Origin: Candidatus Atabeyarchaeum deiterrae
GTDB taxonomy: Archaea > Asgardarchaeota > Atabeyarchaeia > Atabeyarchaeales > Atabeyarchaeaceae
Direction of reading: 5' to 3'
NCBI GenBank assembly: GCA_037310415.1
Contig: CP147780.1
Coordinates: forward strand, 1,696,001 to 1,760,000
DNA: 64,000 nucleotides
Part shown: positions 54,745 to 61,158 of the stretch, in pieces
Position numbering within the stretch: the stretch's first letter is position 1
How the letters are laid out: each line of letters begins with the position of its first letter
Position numbers and translations under genes: made by a program
The notes under the pieces: generated by a model
The model's database searches: none
Told to the model about the DNA's origin: nothing
The model's input: the letters and a program-made list of their open reading frames with translations, nothing else

Positions 54745-55695
54745 ATGGACATCGTCTCACTTGGCGAAGCCATGGTTGAGTTCTTTTGTGATGGGCTGAT
54801 TTCCAAAGCAAAGGTCTTTCAGAAATCGATAGGTGGTGACACATCTAACACGATTATTGCAGCCGCCAGGCTCGGAAGCAAATGCGGCTATATCACAAAG
54901 GTAGGAGAAGACCCATTCACGGAGTACCTGATGAGAAAATGGAAATCAGAAATGATTGATGTATCAAGCATCATACGTATGGCAAATGGATTCAACGGGA
55001 TCTACTTCATTTCCCTCCTACCAGAGGGGCAGAGAGAATTCACATACTACCGGACAGGAAGCGCCGCATCTACCATCACACCACAGGACTTGAAACAGGA
55101 TTATATAGGTTCGGCAAGAATCCTTCATACCAGCGGAATCAGCCAAGCCATATCCAAAACGTCATTGGACACTGTTCAGGAAGCCATCCACATCGCCAAG
55201 AAGAATGGCGTCAAGGTGTCATTCGACCCCAACTACAGAGCCAAACTCTGGACCAAGGAGAGAGCACTGAAGACATACGAGGAGATCCTACCTTATGTGG
55301 ACATTGCTCTTCCAGATGAATCCTACGGTGACCTCATCCATCAAACCAACCCAAGGGAGATCATCAAGTACTTCTCAAGGTTTAAGATCCCAGTTATCGC
55401 ACTGAAACTGGGATCGAAGGGTATGTTGTTGAAGACACTGAACGAAGAAGTCAGATCCTTTGGAATACTTGAAGTTAATGTGAACGACACGACCGGTGCT
55501 GGAGACGCCTTCAATGGAGGATTTCTGCATGGCGTATGCGAAGGCTATTCAACAGATGACTCCGCGCTCCTTGGGACGATAACTGCGGGTTTGAAAGCGA
55601 AAGGGCGGGGTGCAGTCGAGTCACTTCCACCGAGGAAGGACGTATACGAACTTCTAAAGGCAATAAAAAAAGGAGAGAAACATTTAACGCCTTAG
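54745..55695 (+). CDS. PfkB family sugar kinase (2-keto-3-deoxygluconate kinase-like)
   Basis: GEAMVE, GGDTSN, FDPNYRAKLW, DTTGAGDAF. Confidence 0.92.
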   Translation: MDIVSLGEAMVEFFCDGLISKAKVFQKSIGGDTSNTIIAAARLGSKCGYITKVGEDPFTEYLMRKWKSEMIDVSSIIRMANGFNGIYFISLLPEGQREFTYYRTGSAASTITPQDLKQDYIGSARILHTSGISQAISKTSLDTVQEAIHIAKKNGVKVSFDPNYRAKLWTKERALKTYEEILPYVDIALPDESYGDLIHQTNPREIIKYFSRFKIPVIALKLGSKGMLLKTLNEEVRSFGILEVNVNDTTGAGDAFNGGFLHGVCEGYSTDDSALLGTITAGLKAKGRGAVESLPPRKDVYELLKAIKKGEKHLTP

Positions 55696-55764
55696 AAGTA
55701 GAGACTCGGGAAGTTCTGAAATCATCGATATCAGTGATTAGAATCGATTACACCATCTGTAAAC

Positions 55765-55790
55765 ATTTATAAGCTAGTATTTTAATACTA
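55765..55790 (+). promoter_or_regulatory. TATA box with an immediately downstream palindrome
   Basis: TTTATAA followed by TAGTATT-TT-AATACTA (55775-55790), upstream of 55825. Confidence 0.5.
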
Positions 55791-55824
55791 ATAGACAACA
55801 TAACTCAATTAAGGTGAAAATGAG

Positions 55825-56517
55825 TTGAGTCTTGCAATTCCACAAGTGAATATGAGTCCGAAAGGCGAACTAATACCAAATCCTGGCGAAAACGTAGTGC
55901 AGAATTATCACGACGTCCACTACGAGAAAAATGAAGGAGAAATCTACGTTACCGACGTTCGCCTTGTGTGGATTGGATTGAAACACAAGGGCGGCATGCT
56001 CGGAAAACTAGCCCGAGCTGCAGTAGTAGTAGGAGCAATCGCTGCAGGCGCAGCTGTCGGCTCTAGAGCTGGTAGGGCGATCGGAGCACCCGGCGTAGGA
56101 GGATTAGCAGGAGGAATTGGAGGTCTAACGCTAGCGACAATGATGACAAAGCATCCAGATGGCACTCCAACAACAATATCTGTACCCTACGAAGTTGTTA
56201 CAGACATCCAGGTTGCAAAGAACAAACAGGACCTGACAATGTCGACACAAGTAGGATCATTCCTATTCAGATTTGACAAAGGTGGAGCAGAAACAGTTGC
56301 TACCGTAGCTAAAGCACAGAAACTGGCAGCGCAGAAAAGACCAGCACCGCCGCCACCAATGCCTCAGTATCAACAACCGCAATATCAGCAGCCGCAATAC
56401 GCCCCTCAGCCACCACCGCGAGCTGGCGGAGCCTTCTACTGTCCTCACTGCGGAACGCCACAAGAACCTGGCGCAAGATTCTGCCACAACTGTGGGGCAA
56501 GGGTTGACGCCTACTAG
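55825..56517 (+). CDS. GRAM/GLUE-like PH-fold protein with a Gly-zipper insert, Pro/Gln/Tyr linker and C-terminal zinc ribbon
   Basis: PNPGENVV...EGEIYVTDVRLVWI; PQYQQ repeats; CPHCG...FCHNCG; AGGTGA SD. Confidence 0.75.
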   Translation: MSLAIPQVNMSPKGELIPNPGENVVQNYHDVHYEKNEGEIYVTDVRLVWIGLKHKGGMLGKLARAAVVVGAIAAGAAVGSRAGRAIGAPGVGGLAGGIGGLTLATMMTKHPDGTPTTISVPYEVVTDIQVAKNKQDLTMSTQVGSFLFRFDKGGAETVATVAKAQKLAAQKRPAPPPPMPQYQQPQYQQPQYAPQPPPRAGGAFYCPHCGTPQEPGARFCHNCGARVDAY

Positions 56518-56570
56518 AAAAGCGCGCAGACCGCAACTCTCACGCTGCAGGATGCGCCCTTGAATCCAAT

Positions 56571-56606
56571 CCCTATTTCTTTCTTTCTTGTCTTGTTTCT
56601 TCTCTG
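56571..56606 (+). terminator. Pyrimidine/oligo-T tract, probable terminator
   Basis: CCCTATTTCTTTCTTTCTTGTCTTGTTTCTTCTCTG, about 55 nt after the 56517 stop. Confidence 0.5.
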
Positions 56607-56794
56607 TTAGCTGGTTTCCGCGAAGCTGTTCGTGGATTTCCCTGAACCTCTTTCTCCTAGGATAGCATCCTCAATAGTCTGTCAGTTTGGCAGCATTGAT
56701 GGCTTTCTCAATCTCTGGGAAGATCTGCCTTTTGCGCATCACATTCTTTCGCGACATGTCGGCGACTCAGTCACAACAAAAACCACCGTTGAAG

Positions 56795-57160
56795 CACCGC
56801 CCTCTACAAGGCGGAAAATGTATTGTGAACTCGTCTAGAGCGCATTTCGAGTAGAGCGACTCATTGTAAAAAGGGCAGTCCTCGGAGGCTGAGGAATACT
56901 CCGAAAGGAGGGCCTTAACACGTTCTTCTATTAGAAGAGGATTTCGGAAATGGTTCAGTGTTTCGTCAACCATTAGGGTGGGTGCCTCCAGCCTCCGAAG
57001 AGAGCCATAGAGATCTATTGGATAGAGTGGTAAGAAGGGCTAGGGGGACATCCGTAAAAGTGAATGATGGAAGAGGTCACGAAGGTTTCAACTGGAAGAA
57101 TCAAGGATATGTTTTGCAGGGTCTTAACTTGAGGGCCAGTTGTATTTGCCCCCCAATGTT
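56795..57160 (+). ncRNA. Candidate structured non-coding RNA
   Basis: Nested stems: TCGGAGGCTG/CAGCCTCCGA (10 bp), CTCC-GAAA-GGAG, TCTTCT/AGAAGA, AATGGTT/AACCATT, and CAACTGG/CCAGTTG enclosing TCAAG/CTTGA; no long ORF. Confidence 0.3.
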
Positions 57161-57245
57161 GGAAGAGGCGTGGCAATGCCGTACTCCAGCAGGAAAGAGA
57201 GCAAAAAGGAGAACTGGCAAGTGCGGTTTCAGGTTGACCCTATCC

Positions 57246-58286
57246 TTAGCCTGAGCCCATTGCCTCGCTGAGCTTAACCTTCCAGCCCATCACTTTCTCA
57301 ATCAGGCTCTGTTTCTCGTTTCTGTCGAGAGATCTGCCTGGATATCTATTCAAGTCCCGAGCTACTTGCGCAAGGTCGTATATTGCGCCGAATTTGCGGG
57401 TCATGCCCATGATCCTGTCGCGAACATCTAAGATGGCCTTCGCTGCTGTTCCAGCATTCATATTCATCGCTTCTTCGATCGGACCGAATATCTCGTCCAC
57501 TGAACTGGAGACCGCTCGCGGAGCGCCATACATCGGTGGTGGTCTACTAGGCGCCTGAGATAGTGAGGGTGTCATGGATGGTGGCGGACCGCCTGAAGTC
57601 GGAATAGCCCTTCGATCCGCAGAAAGTGACGGTGGTGTTGCTGCAGGAACAGCTGGCTGCTCTGGTGCTGTTTCTCTGGCAGCAGAAACTTTTGTTCCTT
57701 GGAGAGTTTGAAGTGCAGTTCTTGAGGCTTTTTCGAGACCCCTCACTGCTTCCAATGCTTGTAAGCCTGTTTCCTTCAGAGTGATCATCTGAGCGTTAAC
57801 CTCTCCAAGGTTTAGGCTCTCCACTATTCTCCTTGAGACTTCGCTGGCCTCAGCTGGCTGCAGAGAAGGCGTCTTGGCTGCCTGTAAGCTCTCGTTAATG
57901 GTTCTGACTGCCCCGAGTGCCTTTTCACTTTCGGTTCTGATCGCAACTACCTGCTTAGTGGCTTCTCCTATGTCCGGAGCCTTGAAGGATTGCAGTCCCT
58001 CCAAGGTTTGCTTCGATGATTCCTCAAGGAGCTTCAAAGCTTCAAGGGATCTCTGTGTACTCTCTCTGAACAGAGTCAGATGTTCAGCTACCTCTTCTAG
58101 TTTGATAACAGTATTGGTCAGCGGTGCGACCATGTTGTCGACCTGTGCTAGCAACTTGTTGACACGCAAGCCGACGTCGTCGGTCAACGCCTTGAGAAAA
58201 GTGATAATCTGATCAACTTCCTTGATCAAATCATTTGTCTTCATGCCAACTTTCTTCTCAATCTCTGTTTCTTCAGTTTCTCCCAA
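57246..58286 (-). CDS. Coiled-coil protein with a Pro-rich linker and a C-terminal four-helix bundle (Vps28-CTD-like pattern)
   Basis: Heptad N-terminal ~200 aa; P/S/A-rich linker; C-terminal ~85 aa helical domain. TTG 58286 follows GAGGTG. Confidence 0.8.
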   Translation of the reverse strand: MGETEETEIEKKVGMKTNDLIKEVDQIITFLKALTDDVGLRVNKLLAQVDNMVAPLTNTVIKLEEVAEHLTLFRESTQRSLEALKLLEESSKQTLEGLQSFKAPDIGEATKQVVAIRTESEKALGAVRTINESLQAAKTPSLQPAEASEVSRRIVESLNLGEVNAQMITLKETGLQALEAVRGLEKASRTALQTLQGTKVSAARETAPEQPAVPAATPPSLSADRRAIPTSGGPPPSMTPSLSQAPSRPPPMYGAPRAVSSSVDEIFGPIEEAMNMNAGTAAKAILDVRDRIMGMTRKFGAIYDLAQVARDLNRYPGRSLDRNEKQSLIEKVMGWKVKLSEAMGSG

Positions 58287-58522
58287 TTCTAGAAAGCACC
58301 TCTCTAGCTTGACCCCTTCCTCAAACATCCTCAGGGAACTCTGAGAATGCCAGGTGGTCTCTGTTTCGAGACATTTCACACAGATGTAATTAGCTTCTCT
58401 GTATTATAATACCTTTGCGATTGAGTGCCGACATCAGAGACTAATGCCAACAGAATCTCAACGCTGATCTAAAAGAGCGTCGAAGCAAATCCGTGTTGGC
58501 AAATACAGTTTCGGTGCGCTGC

Positions 58523-58804
58523 TTATAGTTCAGCTTCCATTGTTCTCTTTAACAGCCTCATGACATCGAGGGAACCAGTCTTTTCATAGAACTCCTTCAT
58601 GCGTGCAATGCAGAACTCGACTCCATGTGACCTATTGCCGAAGGTTACCTTCTGAACCATGGAGTCGACCCAATCAAGTAAGTTCTTGTCGATAGACAGA
58701 GTAGTAGCAGCTTTGCTTCCTGTTGCTTTTCCGTTTGGTTTCCCGCTCAACGTGACGGTAACTTCAGGAACCTTCGGAAGCTTGGGTCTTCGTCCCATAA
58801 CCAA
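58523..58804 (-). CDS. Ribbon-helix-helix (CopG/NikR-like) DNA-binding protein
   Basis: TTLSIDKNLLDWVDSMV...FGNRSHGVEFCI pattern. Confidence 0.8.
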   Translation of the reverse strand: MVMGRRPKLPKVPEVTVTLSGKPNGKATGSKAATTLSIDKNLLDWVDSMVQKVTFGNRSHGVEFCIARMKEFYEKTGSLDVMRLLKRTMEAEL

Positions 58805-59175
58805 TCACACACCCCACACATCAAACACGCATTACTATACTGTTTTCTGTTGGGCAATTCATTGGACAGGTACCTACATCGAGGTCAGTTACACCTATTC
58901 CCCATGGGCCCCACGGATTCGGTCAAAATGAAATAATGAAACCCGCCATATATAAGATTTCGGCTATGCAGCAGAAGCTTCGACGAGAGGCTAGTGCCAG
59001 AAGGAGAATCCCAGCAGACCTCAGATGGGCGTGTCTTCATGGCAAGTTTTTTTCAAGAGGCAGATATCCTGTCTGCAACGCTGAAAAACACTTAAATACA
59101 TAGTGCTCGATAAATCAAACTTCATACTCATTTACGGCTCAAAATCCCTCGAGAGTTTTGGGCAGGTGAGTTTGT

Positions 59176-61158
59176 TTGAATAGTCAAAAACATGGGAAAA
59201 TGAGGGGAACTAATAAGACGCCAACAAAAGTGAATCTATTGGCAGTAGCACTAATCACCACGTGCATCATTGTGTCGACCTCCCTAATAGGTCTGACGAC
59301 CACCAGAGCAACCGTAGGCGGAGTCGACAACGAGGATCTCCCTATTGGAAACATGAGACAAGTTCCGTTGGACATCAAAATCGTTTTCATCGGAATAAAA
59401 CAGCAATATATCAACATCACAGACGGGTACTTCAATTGGACACTGCCGCCTTACCACATCCAGAGAGAAACATGGTATGGAACCAACTGGGGGGTAAACT
59501 ACACTTTCAACTACAGCTACAGTCTTAACCAGACATTCGACGATGACTTCTTCAACTACATTCACTTCGGGGCAGGAGTCAGGAAAGATGTCCTTGGCCT
59601 AACCAACCCCTATAACGGACTAGGCGGGACGTACCGCTTCTACAACGCGAACAAGGTGGACGACTGGCTTTACAGCAACCCTCAGGGCTACGGCGGGATC
59701 CCCACAAAGGGATACGCACTTTTCCTAATCAACGTGACATACAGGGACTCATACATCCCTTCAGTCAGACAACACTACTACAATCTGACTTACAGCGACA
59801 TAGACTCAACTGGGATCGTAACGGGAGACTGGTATGGTCAGTGGATGACAGGATGGGGAGGACATCATCGGCTTTACTATATTGACTTATCAGCAGGTGT
59901 AAGCGCGGCATCGGTGGCGGCATTCGGCCCCGCTCAACGGTGGTGGAACCGCTACTTCCCGCCTCTATGGAATCTCAATATCAACTTGGGAACGGAGAAC
60001 GGCATCAATTTCTTCAACAAGTACTTATCCGACTTCGTCTTCGGGGCAGTCTACGATTGCTTCACACCAGACTTCCTCTATGCGCCAAGGATAGCGCCGA
60101 CGCCGAACATGCACTACAACATAACGATAGTCATCTTTGACAACTGCACAGACTATGCGAATAAGACACTTGAAGGAGCACTCCCACCCTATGGTCCGGA
60201 TTTTGCCATAAACCAGTCAGCGATTTTGAAGGCTTTCAGAAGTTTGGTGCCTTATGCGACATGGACACTGAACCTCACTCACGTTCACCAAGTAGGACCT
60301 GGACCTGGTCCCTATGGCACTCTGTGGCAAGTAATCAGGAGCGCTGAGAGGACAACTGATGCATTTGGGAACCCAGTGCAATATGTCGACAGAGATATAC
60401 TCTACCATCACTTACAGGCACATCTCGCAGACTTCGGTCTCAGGCAATCGGCAGGGCAGCTTCTAATACCCGTCTTCGTGTTCGCCTTCAAAGGCACATT
60501 CAACTTGGGGTACCAATATGAGGGATACGAGTACGATAACTACTGGGGATTTGGATACCCAGACGTTGTTCTTGTAAGCCACTCACTCTATGACCTAACA
60601 GGTATACCTCCACCGCCGCCTCCAGTGCTATTCCCGGCGGTTCCTCAAGGCTTCACACAGACGATAATACACGAGACTGGTCACGCTGTTGGTTTGATTC
60701 ACCCATTCTGGTGGGACTACGACGAGGACTATGTATCATCAGCTATGGCTTACTACCCGTACGAGTACGGGTTTAGCCAGTTCGACAAAGACGCCATACA
60801 AAGGGGGCACGCAGACTACTACATAATCCGGGCTCTATCCATGATGGAGAACGCGACAGTGCTCAAAACCACAAGACAAATGACCGCAGCACTCCTCAAG
60901 CTATACAACCAAGCAACTGGAAACCTGACCACGGCCAACACGGATTATGCAAGCATGAACTACTATCCTGCGATGACCAATGGAAGTACGGCTCTCAGCC
61001 TATTCGCGCAGTTTGTACTTGGAGCAAGTGGGCAACCTCTGCTCACCACCTCAGCAGCACCCCCTGATATTATGGTTCCGGTAATTGCTTCAGTTATAGT
61101 GGGGATCGTAGTAGGTGTAGCTATAGGGCAATTCATGGGAAGAAAACGAAAGAAATAG
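59176..61158 (+). CDS. Membrane-anchored extracellular zinc metalloprotease (metzincin-like)
   Basis: Signal/anchor N-terminus, HETGHAVGLIH, SAM Met-turn, C-terminal TM + RKRKK, many N-x-S/T sequons. Confidence 0.85.
   Translation: MNSQKHGKMRGTNKTPTKVNLLAVALITTCIIVSTSLIGLTTTRATVGGVDNEDLPIGNMRQVPLDIKIVFIGIKQQYINITDGYFNWTLPPYHIQRETWYGTNWGVNYTFNYSYSLNQTFDDDFFNYIHFGAGVRKDVLGLTNPYNGLGGTYRFYNANKVDDWLYSNPQGYGGIPTKGYALFLINVTYRDSYIPSVRQHYYNLTYSDIDSTGIVTGDWYGQWMTGWGGHHRLYYIDLSAGVSAASVAAFGPAQRWWNRYFPPLWNLNINLGTENGINFFNKYLSDFVFGAVYDCFTPDFLYAPRIAPTPNMHYNITIVIFDNCTDYANKTLEGALPPYGPDFAINQSAILKAFRSLVPYATWTLNLTHVHQVGPGPGPYGTLWQVIRSAERTTDAFGNPVQYVDRDILYHHLQAHLADFGLRQSAGQLLIPVFVFAFKGTFNLGYQYEGYEYDNYWGFGYPDVVLVSHSLYDLTGIPPPPPPVLFPAVPQGFTQTIIHETGHAVGLIHPFWWDYDEDYVSSAMAYYPYEYGFSQFDKDAIQRGHADYYIIRALSMMENATVLKTTRQMTAALLKLYNQATGNLTTANTDYASMNYYPAMTNGSTALSLFAQFVLGASGQPLLTTSAAPPDIMVPVIASVIVGIVVGVAIGQFMGRKRKK

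What the first reader, a model, noticed from the sequence alone, without database searches (positions are those of the whole stretch)
55825..58804. Possible ESCRT-I/II-like bridging module: GLUE/GRAM-Zn-ribbon gene facing a Vps28-CTD-like coiled-coil gene
Seen: a PH-like + Zn-ribbon protein (55825-56517) and a coiled-coil/Pro-rich/four-helix protein (57246-58286) lie convergently, with an RHH regulator upstream of the latter. Known: in yeast, the Vps36 GLUE (PH) domain and its NZF zinc finger bind the Vps28 C-terminal four-helix bundle, linking ESCRT-II to ESCRT-I. Inference: these two genes could encode stand-alone archaeal versions of both halves of that interface, outside a canonical ESCRT cluster. 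Convergent orientation means they are not co-transcribed, so the adjacency may be chance.
Basis: partly seen in the sequence, partly recalled or inferred. Interest (0 to 1): 0.78.

Follow-up and report, generated by a model that had tools for sequence, protein, structure and literature searches.

The report
Two unlinked Asgard genes, not ESCRT bridge
The two genes are real and one does have a Vps36-GLUE/GRAM-type PH fold plus a zinc ribbon. But they look like independent Asgard-specific proteins that are neighbours only in one lineage, and nothing found here ties either of them to the ESCRT machinery.

Summary
The window comes from a complete 2.76-Mb Atabeyarchaeia (Asgard) genome.

**Gene A (55825-56517, +)**
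- It is a confident PH-like fold whose nearest solved structures are BBS5, MTMR2-GRAM and Vps36-GLUE, which are tied.
- The fold is split in the beta3-beta4 loop by a roughly 55-residue Gly/Ala-rich hydrophobic hairpin.
- A Pro/Gln linker and a generic Zn_Ribbon_1 follow.
- It belongs to a large Asgard-wide family that is annotated only as "zinc ribbon".

**Gene B (57246-58286, -)**
- It is a coiled coil, a Pro-rich linker and a conserved ~90-residue helical C-terminal domain (CTD).
- The CTD's likeness to Vps28-C is no better than that of a generic four-helix bundle. Pfam gives no hit, hhalign probability is under 5%, and the reciprocal Atlas search is negative.

**The pairing**
- A conserved 68-aa Cys-rich gene lies between A and B.
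- The adjacency holds only inside Atabeyarchaeia, where the whole ~10-kb block is collinear.
- Distant A homologs never sit beside a B homolog. Distant B homologs sit in the ribosomal-protein operon.
- A also occurs in genomes where Vps28 was not detected.
- The genome's true UEV-Vps23/Vps28/EAP30/Vps25 cluster lies 1.35 Mb away.

**Verdict:** the fold call for A is right, and the "bridging module" is not supported. Interest is modest.

The parts
55825..56517 (+). Gene A, 230 aa: a split PH-like (GRAM/GLUE-type) domain plus a C-terminal zinc ribbon. It belongs to an Asgard-wide family.
   Evidence: ORF. AF2 model m3bfb5c0526aa. Fold matches. Family of more than 233 proteins. An RNA-library contig covers 55824-56562 with no differences.
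55825..55986 (+). A residues 1-54: a conserved N-terminal segment and PH strands beta1-beta3.
   Evidence: Strands at residues 24-33, 36-43 and 46-51, with pLDDT 87-95. Invariant residues include T43, R46 and W49.
55987..56154 (+). A residues 55-110: a Gly/Ala-rich hydrophobic insertion in the beta3-beta4 loop, flanked by Lys/Arg. I propose it is a membrane-dipping hairpin.
   Evidence: pLDDT 35-58 with two short helices. Of 56 residues, 15 are Gly and 13 are Ala. Two 19-residue Kyte-Doolittle peaks score 1.74 and 1.29. The insertion is kept in all family members. A weak TraT hit, a family I recall as glycine-zipper-like, is at E 0.16.
56155..56340 (+). A residues 111-172: PH strands beta4-beta7 and the C-terminal capping helix.
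   Evidence: Strands at 117-121, 125-130, 136-141 and 145-150, and a helix at 155-171, with pLDDT 92-96.
56341..56433 (+). A residues 173-203: a Pro/Gln/Tyr-rich flexible linker.
   Evidence: pLDDT 44-47. In the more distant relatives this region is replaced by an extra Zn ribbon and a Gly-rich stretch.
56434..56505 (+). A residues 204-227: a CxxC-x10-CxxC zinc ribbon.
   Evidence: Pfam Zn_Ribbon_1 1.9e-8 and Zn_ribbon_3 1.5e-6. The four Cys are invariant.
56767..56973 (-). A conserved 68-aa Cys-rich small protein gene downstream of B on B's strand. It lies between A and B.
   Evidence: tblastn identity is 57-66% in all Atabeyarchaeia loci, always next to B. No Pfam family.
57246..58286 (-). 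Gene B, about 346 aa from the TTG at 58286. The database call of 360 aa starts at 58328, and the longest ORF runs to 58379. Layout: coiled coil, Pro-rich linker, conserved helical C-terminal domain.
   Evidence: ORF. Family alignment. AF2 model is all-helical with mean pLDDT 60.
57699..58286 (-). B's N-terminal coiled-coil / helical-hairpin region (residues 15-210 of the 360-aa call).
57525..57698 (-). B's Pro/Ala/Ser-rich disordered linker.
   Evidence: pLDDT 36-43 and a variable alignment.
57249..57524 (-). B's C-terminal ~92-residue helical domain, probably a small helical bundle. It is the best conserved part, at 80% mean column identity.
   Evidence: Alignment A3. The exhaustive HMM search found 8 related proteins and one TPR false positive. 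Paralogs exist in the same genome. The likeness to Vps28-C is inconclusive.
58523..58804 (-). A 93-aa probable ribbon-helix-helix protein upstream of B on the same strand.
   Evidence: Sub-threshold NikR/CdrS RHH matches at residues 34-65. It is 81-86% identical and in the same position in 4 of 5 related loci.

Best explanation
These are two functionally independent Asgard-specific genes that are neighbours only through lineage-specific collinearity.

**Gene A.** It encodes a membrane-associated adaptor. A PH-like domain of the GRAM/GLUE/BBS5 structural type has, in its beta3-beta4 loop, a Lys/Arg-flanked Gly/Ala-rich hydrophobic hairpin. From established PH-domain structure, as I recall it, this loop is one of the loops at the membrane-facing open end of the barrel. 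I infer that the hairpin dips into the cytoplasmic leaflet and anchors the domain. A flexible linker then holds out a generic zinc ribbon that would recruit a partner still to be identified. The fold, the insertion, the zinc ribbon and the presence of A in an RNA library are shown here. Membrane anchoring and partner recruitment are inferred.

**Gene B.** It encodes an elongated scaffold made of a coiled coil, a disordered Pro-rich linker and a small helical C-terminal domain. Its conserved unit is the same-strand trio RHH -> B -> Cys-rich small protein, not the pairing with A. Neither gene shows a demonstrable link to ESCRT-I or ESCRT-II.

For: **Insertion.** Its position, its composition and two hydrophobic 19-residue segments are shown. 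It is conserved across the family.

**The architecture is common in prokaryotes.** The Atlas neighbours are archaeal bPH_3 plus Zn_Ribbon_1 proteins of Nitrososphaerota and Microcaldota, together with Thermoplasmatota and Bathyarchaeota clusters in which these families are absent or rare. There are also bacterial and Methanobacteriota PH plus Zn-ribbon clusters.

**A is a wide Asgard family.** It includes proteins named by their sources as Thor-, Hod-, Loki- and Sifarchaeia. Full-length homologs occur in 4 of 20 sampled families. One of these has A in 6 of 6 genomes and the VPS28 Pfam model in 0 of 6.

**RNA library.** A 739-nt contig of a wetland metatranscriptome matches 55824-56562 with no differences. 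That is gene A alone.

**B's unit.** The Cys-rich ORF follows B in 5 of 5 Atabeyarchaeia loci, and the RHH precedes it in 4 of 5.

**Independence.**
- Distant A homologs lie beside MFS / F420-ligase / Topo VI genes or CMD / ProRS genes, with no B.
- Distant B homologs P0152 and P0151 lie between rps17 and rpl14, with no A.
- The B-CTD profile is found in family f1, plus one weak hit in another family.
- The canonical UEV-Vps23 / Vps28 / EAP30 / Vps25 cluster is at 0.34 Mb and the window is at 1.70-1.76 Mb.
- In no sampled genome holding both A and Vps28 are the two on one contig, or closer than 1 Mb.
Against: - A and B are adjacent in 4 of 5 Atabeyarchaeia loci, at protein identities of only 44-62%. 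The fifth locus is unresolved because of contig ends. Some selective retention of the pairing cannot be excluded.
- The top Foldseek hit for A is Vps36 GLUE.
- B's CTD scores above 100 of 100 column shuffles, and above 99 of 100 block shuffles in global mode, against Asgard Vps28-C.
- This genome's EAP30 subunit has no GLUE domain. That leaves a formal vacancy for a GLUE-like protein acting in trans.
- Membrane insertion of the Gly/Ala-rich hairpin is inferred from composition and loop position only. Both segments are short and only weakly hydrophobic, and no TM predictor was available.
Confidence: 0.55

Rival explanations
1. A is a stand-alone GLUE(+Zn finger) analogue and B carries a Vps28-CTD analogue. 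The two bind each other as an ESCRT-I/II-type bridge outside the canonical cluster.
For: A's top Foldseek hit is yeast Vps36 GLUE. The Zn ribbon has the CxxC-x10-CxxC spacing that NZF also has (sequence; the NZF spacing is recalled from memory). The Atlas model of B's CTD aligns to a eukaryotic Vps28 cluster at TM 0.76, and at 0.74 to an Asgard 788-aa cluster whose size class carries Vps28-C. hhalign gives P 0.004-0.018. The genes are adjacent in 4 of 5 Atabeyarchaeia loci.
Against: - GLUE is tied with BBS5, GRAM and p62 PH domains.
- There is no Vps36_ESCRT-II or zf-RanBP Pfam hit in A.
- The insertion is in a different loop and of a different kind.
- The VPS28 Pfam model misses B even at E<=1.
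- hhalign probability is under 5%.
- The genuine Vps28-C reaches TM 0.69-0.74 with unrelated four-helix bundles and does not retrieve B.
- The genes are convergent, with a conserved gene between them.
- No adjacency is seen outside one collinear class.
- A occurs without B in three further families.
Confidence: 0.06
2. A acts in trans with the canonical ESCRT machinery. It would be a membrane-anchored GLUE substitute for an EAP30 subunit that lacks GLUE. B would be unrelated to this.
For: The genome's EAP30 protein is 265 aa with no PH domain. A has a GLUE/GRAM-type fold and a probable membrane anchor. Makarova et al. 2024 (PMC10936438) describe another Asgard PH plus Zn-ribbon protein, Znr_PH_CC_SB, as a likely ESCRT-I component.
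Against: Full-length A occurs in only 4 of 20 sampled Asgard families, whereas Vps28 occurs in 14. One family has A in 6 of 6 genomes but Vps28 in 0 of 6. A is never near ESCRT genes. A lacks the coiled coil and steadiness box of Znr_PH_CC_SB.
Confidence: 0.1
3. The Gly/Ala-rich insertion of A is not a membrane anchor. It would be a disordered or self-associating (glycine-zipper-type) loop. A would then be a soluble small adaptor, or a nucleic-acid or metal binder acting through its Zn ribbon.
For: The insertion has low pLDDT (35-58). The hydrophobic segments are short and Gly-rich, with KD 1.3-1.7. Generic Zn ribbons serve many roles.
Against: The flanking Lys/Arg residues, the two-segment layout and the position in the membrane-facing loop are conserved from Atabeyarchaeia to the more distant relatives.
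Confidence: 0.2
4. B belongs to a family with a housekeeping role linked to the ribosome or to translation, rather than to membrane remodelling.
For: Distant homologs with the same three-part layout sit between rps17 and rpl14, inside the ribosomal-protein operon, on contigs from two assemblies (plus an unbinned metagenome contig).
Against: In Atabeyarchaeia, B is not in that operon. Other distant homologs lie next to a Ras-like gene fragment or a CitG gene. Gene position alone does not show function.
Confidence: 0.12

Closest known systems
Vps36/EAP45 GLUE domain (ESCRT-II; PDB 2cay, 2dx5, 2hth)
   Different: No Pfam Vps36_ESCRT-II hit. Not fused to an EAP30 or winged-helix core. The split is in beta3-beta4, and from memory the yeast NZF insert is in beta6-beta7. 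The inserted piece is a Gly/Ala-rich hydrophobic hairpin, not a zinc finger. The Zn ribbon is C-terminal and generic. There is no ESCRT gene context.
GRAM / BBS5 / TFIIH-p62 PH-like domains (Pfam PH clan)
   Different: All scores are below the Pfam thresholds. These are eukaryotic multidomain proteins, and none has the hydrophobic insertion or a Zn ribbon.
Prokaryotic 'bacterial PH / zinc-ribbon' proteins (Pfam bPH_3 + Zn_Ribbon_1) of Nitrososphaerota and Microcaldota, with related Thermoplasmatota and Bathyarchaeota clusters
   Same: The same two-domain layout: an N-terminal PH-like domain, a linker and a C-terminal Zn ribbon. They are the nearest Atlas clusters by features (0.80-0.82) and by shape (TM 0.40-0.44 by query, 0.52-0.54 by the hit).
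   Different: There is no bPH_3 Pfam hit in A or its family. Those proteins are about 160-210 aa and unsplit. A carries the ~55-residue insertion.
Asgard Znr_PH_CC_SB (cog.011556; Makarova et al. 2024, PMC10936438)
   Same: An Asgard-specific protein that combines Zn ribbons with a PH domain. The authors expect its PH domain to be membrane-associated.
   Different: That protein is about 650 aa, with three N-terminal Zn ribbons, a coiled coil and a steadiness box, and it is filed with ESCRT-I. A is 230 aa with none of these. No sequence comparison could be made because no member sequence was in hand.
Vps28 C-terminal domain (Pfam VPS28, C-terminal half; four-helix bundle)
   Same: B's CTD is a small C-terminal helical domain after a flexible linker. 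hhalign aligns it end to end with Asgard Vps28-C at P 0.004. The Atlas gives TM 0.76.
   Different: No Pfam hit. Probability is under 5%. The reciprocal search is negative and the TM is at or just above the level of generic bundles. B has no Vps28 N-terminal core and no ESCRT neighbourhood.

Membership tests
Vps36 GLUE domain | PH-like fold that matches solved GLUE domains | tested here: met
Vps36 GLUE domain | Sequence match to Pfam Vps36_ESCRT-II (PF11605) | tested here: not met
   No hit at E<=1 in P0001. The family is not among the 25 families most often matched by 61 family members.
Vps36 GLUE domain | Fused N-terminally to an EAP30 / winged-helix ESCRT-II core | tested here: not met
   A is 230 aa: PH, linker and Zn ribbon only. 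The genome's EAP30 protein is a separate 265-aa gene 1.35 Mb away.
Vps36 GLUE domain | NZF (RanBP2-type) zinc finger(s) inserted in the PH domain (yeast form) | tested here: not met
   The inserted segment has no Cys and is Gly/Ala-rich. The Zn ribbon is C-terminal and matches Zn_Ribbon_1, with no zf-RanBP hit.
Vps36 GLUE domain | Binds Vps28-C, ubiquitin and PI3P | not testable with these tools
   This needs binding assays.
Vps28 C-terminal domain | Match to the Pfam VPS28 model (PF03997) | tested here: not met
   hmmscan of B gives no hit at E<=1. The whole-genome search at E<=1 finds only the canonical gene at 344155-344727.
Vps28 C-terminal domain | Profile-profile similarity to Asgard Vps28-C | tested here: inconclusive
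   hhalign P 0.004-0.018 and probability 2.6-4.6%. The score is above the reversed control and above 100 of 100 column shuffles. Block shuffles reach it 7 times in 100 (local) and once in 100 (global).
Vps28 C-terminal domain | Four-helix-bundle fold like solved or predicted Vps28-C | tested here: inconclusive
   The Atlas model aligns to a eukaryotic Vps28 cluster at TM 0.76. The genuine Vps28-C scores 0.84-0.86 with true relatives and 0.69-0.74 with unrelated bundles, and it does not retrieve B. My AF2 model of this part is of low confidence, and the CTD was not covered by the PDB searches.
Vps28 C-terminal domain | Encoded in or near an ESCRT-I/II gene cluster | tested here: not met
   The neighbours are the RHH, the Cys-rich ORF, a 660-aa protein and a P-type ATPase. 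The ESCRT cluster is 1.35 Mb away.
PH-like superfold (GRAM-like group) | Seven-stranded antiparallel barrel capped by a C-terminal helix | tested here: met
bPH_3 + Zn_Ribbon_1 prokaryotic proteins | Pfam bPH_3 (PF14470) match | tested here: not met
   No hit in A or among the top families of 61 members. The own-genome search hits a different 181-aa gene at E 0.04.
bPH_3 + Zn_Ribbon_1 prokaryotic proteins | PH-like domain followed by a C-terminal Zn_Ribbon_1 | tested here: met
   The nearest Atlas clusters share this layout.
Ribbon-helix-helix (CopG/NikR-N) regulators (58523-58804) | Sequence match to an RHH family | tested here: inconclusive
   Only sub-threshold hits: NikR E 0.043, CdrS E 0.056, and PDB NikR E 0.82 over residues 34-65. 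No Pfam hit.

The most novel reading that the evidence does not exclude
The A family would be a free-standing, membrane-anchored counterpart of the GLUE domain. It would work in trans with Asgard ESCRT-II, whose EAP30 subunit has no GLUE domain in this genome. The C-terminal domain of B would be a very divergent Vps28-C. The pair would then preserve, as separate genes, an early form of the ESCRT-I/II bridge. A weaker version of the same idea is that this Asgard split-PH family is the closest prokaryotic relative of the eukaryotic GRAM/GLUE/BBS5/p62 PH domains.
Probability: 0.06. Interest if true: 0.8.

Novelty: new variant of a known kind. Interest (0 to 1): 0.3.

Why it matters
If the ESCRT reading had held, it would have shown how the ESCRT-I/II link was assembled before eukaryotes. 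It does not hold on present evidence.

Three smaller points remain useful:
1. A large Asgard-wide protein family annotated only as "zinc ribbon" in fact contains a confident GRAM/GLUE-type PH domain with a probable membrane-inserting hairpin. This adds to the short list of PH-like membrane adaptors in the archaeal relatives of eukaryotes.
2. A rare Asgard-specific coiled-coil / linker / helical-domain family has distant members that sit inside the ribosomal-protein operon.
3. Fold likeness to GLUE and Vps28-C should not be read as ESCRT membership without support from gene context and phyletic distribution.

Tried and rejected
- **Co-folding of A with B's CTD.** The job used A (alignment A1) and B's C-terminal domain (A3). 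The verdict was "no answer" with score 0.00, which is neither support nor evidence against.
- **Foldseek of the whole B model against PDB.** Nothing at E<=0.001.
- **Profile searches of B and its CTD against PDB sequences.** Only chance-level hits at E>0.3.
- **Rfam and tRNA scans of 55000-59500.** Nothing found, so the conserved A-B spacer is not a known RNA gene.
- **NCBIfam on all three proteins.** Nothing above threshold.
- **hhalign of the A-family profile against the genome's second Zn-ribbon protein (181 aa, L039).** Only the Zn ribbon aligned, so a shared PH origin is not shown.
- **Synteny in genome G023.** A and B lie on different contigs that both end nearby, and a membrane protein plus an XRE gene follow the Cys-rich ORF. 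This cannot decide whether adjacency is kept.
- **RNA runs.** Only one small run held part of the stretch. The parts of the stretch without contig cover (B, the RHH, the Cys-rich ORF) say nothing about their expression, and three other runs laid nothing.
- **Literature.** The structure-based Asgard ESP preprint (10.1101/2024.07.03.601958) does not mention pleckstrin, GRAM, GLUE, Vps36, BBS5 or Vps28.
- **P0149.** This 773-aa hit of the CTD profile is a TPR-repeat false positive.


Full report
**Source and setting.** The window is bases 1,696,001-1,760,000 of a single-contig 2.757-Mb genome. The closest named homolog of gene A comes from "SRVP18_Atabeyarchaeia-1", and the window's own proteins occur on a 2,756,679-bp contig. 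The organism is therefore an Atabeyarchaeia-class Asgard archaeon. That lineage is described from wetland soil (PMC11291895, listed).

**The observation.** The three ORFs are present as described:
- A is 55825-56517 (+), 230 aa.
- B is 57246-58286 (-).
- A 93-aa ORF is at 58523-58804 (-).

For B, the longest ORF reaches 58379 and the database gene call starts at 58328.

Between A and B lies a 68-aa Cys-rich ORF (56767-56973, -). It is 57-66% identical in every related locus and always follows B. It is not a known RNA. A and B therefore do not face each other directly.

**Gene A: structure.** Pfam sees only the C-terminal zinc ribbon (Zn_Ribbon_1, 1.9e-8), plus a faint BBL5 hit (E 0.15). An AF2 model built on 25 homologs shows the following, in order:
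- three strands at residues 24-51
- a low-confidence stretch at 55-110
- four strands at 117-150
- a helix at 155-171
- a disordered linker
- the ribbon

The strands and the C-terminal helix have pLDDT 87-96.

This is a PH-like barrel split in the beta3-beta4 loop. Foldseek against the PDB puts yeast Vps36 GLUE (2cay) first at E 2.2e-4, followed by Lam6 GRAM, BBS5, neurofibromin PH and MTMR2. The Foldseek-independent search gives these scores:

|---|---|
| BBS5 (rmsd 1.8, 105 residues, 18% identity) | 13.9 |
| MTMR2 GRAM | 13.0 |
| Vps36 GLUE | 12.7 |
| Lam6 | 12.0 |
| TFIIH p62 | 11.9 |
| EAP45 GLUE | 11.2 |

These values are effectively tied. The fold type (GRAM/GLUE-like PH) is confirmed, but GLUE cannot be singled out. 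At the sequence level, 6 of 61 family members give sub-threshold BBL5 hits and 7 of 61 give PH_TFIIH hits. Vps36_ESCRT-II, GRAM and bPH_3 are not among the 25 families most often matched. The profile against PDB sequences again touches BBS5 (E 0.034) and p62 (E 1.4).

**Gene A: the insertion.** Residues 55-110 hold 15 Gly and 13 Ala among 56 residues. They contain two 19-residue segments with Kyte-Doolittle means of 1.74 and 1.29, flanked by Lys/Arg. The same two-segment layout is kept in the distant relatives.

From established PH-domain structure, the beta1-beta2, beta3-beta4 and beta6-beta7 loops form the membrane-facing open end of the barrel. A basic-flanked hydrophobic hairpin in that loop is therefore best read as a membrane wedge or anchor. 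This step is inference.

This differs from yeast GLUE, whose inserted element is a pair of NZF zinc fingers (PMC10936438). A's zinc ribbon is C-terminal and of the generic prokaryotic kind.

**Gene A: family and relatives.** The first search found about 20 close relatives and a few distant ones. A profile search found 233 proteins at E<=0.01, named Thor-, Hod-, Loki- and Sifarchaeia "zinc ribbon domain-containing protein".

In an even sample of 61 Asgard genomes, full-length matches occur in four of twenty families (f1, f6, f12 and f18). Elsewhere only the ribbon matches.

The ESM Atlas neighbours, by language-model features and by shape, are mainly archaeal "bacterial PH / zinc-ribbon" proteins (bPH_3 + Zn_Ribbon_1). 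They come from Nitrososphaerota and Microcaldota, alongside Thermoplasmatota and Bathyarchaeota clusters that mostly lack these Pfam families. Eukaryotic GRAM, BBS5 and p62 proteins also appear. A PH-like domain followed by a zinc ribbon is thus a common prokaryotic layout. It is not a signature of the GLUE-NZF arrangement.

The same genome holds a second, unsplit 181-aa protein with a nearly identical ribbon. It has sub-threshold bPH_3 (E 0.04) and Vps36_ESCRT-II (E 0.08) hits. Profile comparison aligned only the ribbons.

**Gene A: RNA library.** One small wetland RNA-seq run holds a 739-nt contig identical to 55824-56562. That is gene A from one base before its start codon to 45 bases past its stop, and nothing else in the 3.2-kb stretch. 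Contigs cannot prove transcript ends, and DNA carry-over cannot be excluded. Still, the fit to one gene is what a monocistronic transcript would give.

**Gene B: structure.** There is no Pfam or NCBIfam family. Nineteen homologs, all at 39% identity or more, show a well-conserved N-terminal helical region, a variable Pro-rich linker and a strongly conserved last ~92 residues. The AF2 model is all-helical and poor, with mean pLDDT 60 and pTM 0.26.

**Gene B: family.** An exhaustive HMM search of 1.84 billion representatives with the C-terminal profile found nine proteins:
- two are B orthologs
- one is a TPR false positive
- six (P0150-P0155) are distant homologs; the four longer ones (240-334 aa) show the same coiled-coil / Pro-Ala-rich linker / C-terminal-domain layout, and two (59 and 83 aa) hold only the C-terminal domain

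The genome has three further paralogs of the domain:
- a tandem pair of 169 and 171 aa, next to a NYN gene and a P-type ATPase
- a 373-aa gene, divergent from a ThiS-family beta-grasp protein that ends in GG

**Is B's C-terminus a Vps28-C?** I ran six tests:
1. The VPS28 Pfam model finds only the canonical gene in this genome, even at E<=1.
2. I built an Asgard Vps28 alignment from 30 genomes. hhalign against the expanded B-CTD alignment gives P 0.004-0.018 and probability 2.6-4.6%. The alignment runs end to end in global mode.
3. The real score exceeds a reversed control and all 100 column shuffles. Block shuffles reach it 7 times in 100 (local mode) and once in 100 (global mode).
4. The Atlas's own model of B aligns over residues 270-360 to a eukaryotic Vps28 cluster at TM 0.76. 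It also aligns at TM 0.74 to a 788-aa Asgard cluster; proteins of that size class carry a Vps28-C Pfam match in other genomes.
5. As a positive control, the genuine Vps28-C of this genome scores 0.84-0.86 with those two clusters. It scores 0.69-0.74 with unrelated bacterial four-helix bundles such as cytochrome c' and Alpha-E. It does not retrieve B or its paralogs. By features it finds Vps28 at 0.86-0.87, which B does not.
6. The PDB fold searches of my B model did not cover the CTD.

Conclusion: B probably ends in a small helical bundle. Homology to Vps28-C is not demonstrated, and the likeness is at the level of a generic bundle.

**The 93-aa ORF.** It has only sub-threshold matches to the ribbon-helix-helix N-termini of NikR and CdrS. 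It sits about 195-240 bp upstream of B on the same strand and is 81-86% identical in 4 of 5 related loci.

**Is the pairing conserved?** Within Atabeyarchaeia-type contigs the order is GNAT - (PfkB) - A -> <- Cys - B - RHH ... P-type ATPase. This order recurs in L002/L040, L008/L009 and L001. The whole block is collinear, so the adjacency of A and B carries no extra weight.

In genome G023 the Cys-rich gene is followed by a membrane protein and an XRE regulator, and then the contig ends. A lies at the end of another contig. That case is unresolved.

Outside this class the link disappears:
- Distant A homologs lie beside MFS transporters, F420 ligase and Topo VI (one locus set, from an assembly whose copy NCBI names Thorarchaeota), or CMD and ProRS (another).
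- B-like genes P0152 and P0151 lie between rps17 and rpl14 in the ribosomal-protein operon.
- Other B-like genes lie beside a Ras-like fragment or a CitG gene.
- The B-CTD profile is found in family f1 only, plus one weak hit on a different contig from A in G046.

**Relation to ESCRT.** The genome's canonical cluster encodes a UEV + Vps23-core protein, Vps28, an EAP30 protein and an ESCRT-II/Vps25 protein. It lies at about 0.34 Mb, which is 1.35 Mb from the window.

In the sample, Vps28 is found in 14 of 20 families and full-length A in 4. One family has A in 6 of 6 genomes and Vps28 in 0 of 6 at E<=0.001. In complete genomes the two are more than 1 Mb apart (G000, G012, G037). In draft genomes they are never on the same contig.

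Makarova et al. 2024 already describe an Asgard Zn-ribbon + PH + coiled-coil + steadiness-box protein, and many multidomain proteins with Vps28-C (PMC10936438). A and B have neither the steadiness box nor a recognisable Vps28-C.

**Explanation.**
- A is most likely a membrane-associated PH-type adaptor that presents a zinc ribbon on a flexible tether.
- B is an elongated coiled-coil scaffold with a small helical head. Its conserved companions are the upstream RHH and the downstream Cys-rich protein.
- The two are neighbours by descent within one class, not a module.

Shown here: the folds, the domain order, the family ranges, the gene contexts and the RNA-library contig. Inferred: membrane insertion, partner recruitment and any regulatory role of the RHH.

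**Novelty and score.** The ESCRT-bridge reading is not supported. What is new is modest:
- an unannotated GRAM/GLUE-type PH domain, split by a hydrophobic hairpin, in a large Asgard family
- a rare Asgard coiled-coil family, some of whose members are embedded in the ribosomal-protein operon

I rate the finding as a new variant of a known kind, with interest 0.3.

Noticed in passing
L048:5001-5870, L049:4339-5208, L050:1636-2505, L055:1-723: Distant homologs of gene B sit inside the ribosomal-protein operon, between rps17 and rpl14. They share B's layout of coiled coil, Pro/Ala-rich linker and ~85-aa C-terminal domain. They occur on contigs from two NCBI assemblies and one ENA metagenome contig.
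   Followed up: partly
L045:1237-1746 and L045:1864-2379 (G000:C1, about 2,376,676-2,377,818): Two tandem paralogs of 169 and 171 aa carry B's C-terminal domain (E 8e-9 and 3e-9). They are flanked by a NYN-domain gene and a P-type cation ATPase. B itself also lies near a P-type ATPase (window 61372-63807).
   Followed up: partly
L046:1498-2619 (-) and L046:2712-3113 (+) (G000:C1, about 1,319,976-1,321,591): A third paralog of B's C-terminal domain (373 aa, E 8e-5) is divergently paired with a ThiS-family beta-grasp protein that ends in Gly-Gly. This is a ubiquitin-like modifier candidate.
   Followed up: no
window 56767-56973 (-): A conserved 68-aa protein with seven Cys, including a C-terminal CxxxC...CC cluster. 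It has no Pfam family and always lies downstream of B.
   Followed up: partly
L039:1213-1758 (-) (G000:C1:579837-580382): A second small Zn-ribbon protein of 181 aa, whose ribbon is nearly identical to A's. Its N-terminal part gives sub-threshold bPH_3 (E 0.04) and Vps36_ESCRT-II (E 0.08) hits. It may be an unsplit PH + Zn-ribbon relative.
   Followed up: partly
window 59176-61158 (+): A 660-aa protein with no Pfam family. It has an HExxH motif (HETGH) and hydrophobic segments at both ends. It is 59% identical in the sister genome but missing from locus L008.
   Followed up: no
L001:5827-6341: In one related contig the RHH gene is absent. The P-type ATPase next to B is represented only by two short overlapping tblastn fragments, so it may be a degraded gene.
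   Followed up: no
G039:C36:77934-78206, G048:C70:1511-1786, G019:C272:12192-12470, G030:C14:18572-18859: Several Asgard genomes carry a second Vps28-C match (profile positions 87-186) inside open frames of 786-807 aa. This is consistent with the multidomain Vps28-C proteins described by Makarova et al. 2024.
   Followed up: no
L003 (G000:C1:342655-346227): The canonical ESCRT cluster of this genome: UEV + Vps23-core (262 aa), Vps28 (303 aa, with a ~110-aa N-terminal extension), EAP30 (265 aa, no GLUE) and Vps25 (210 aa).
   Followed up: yes
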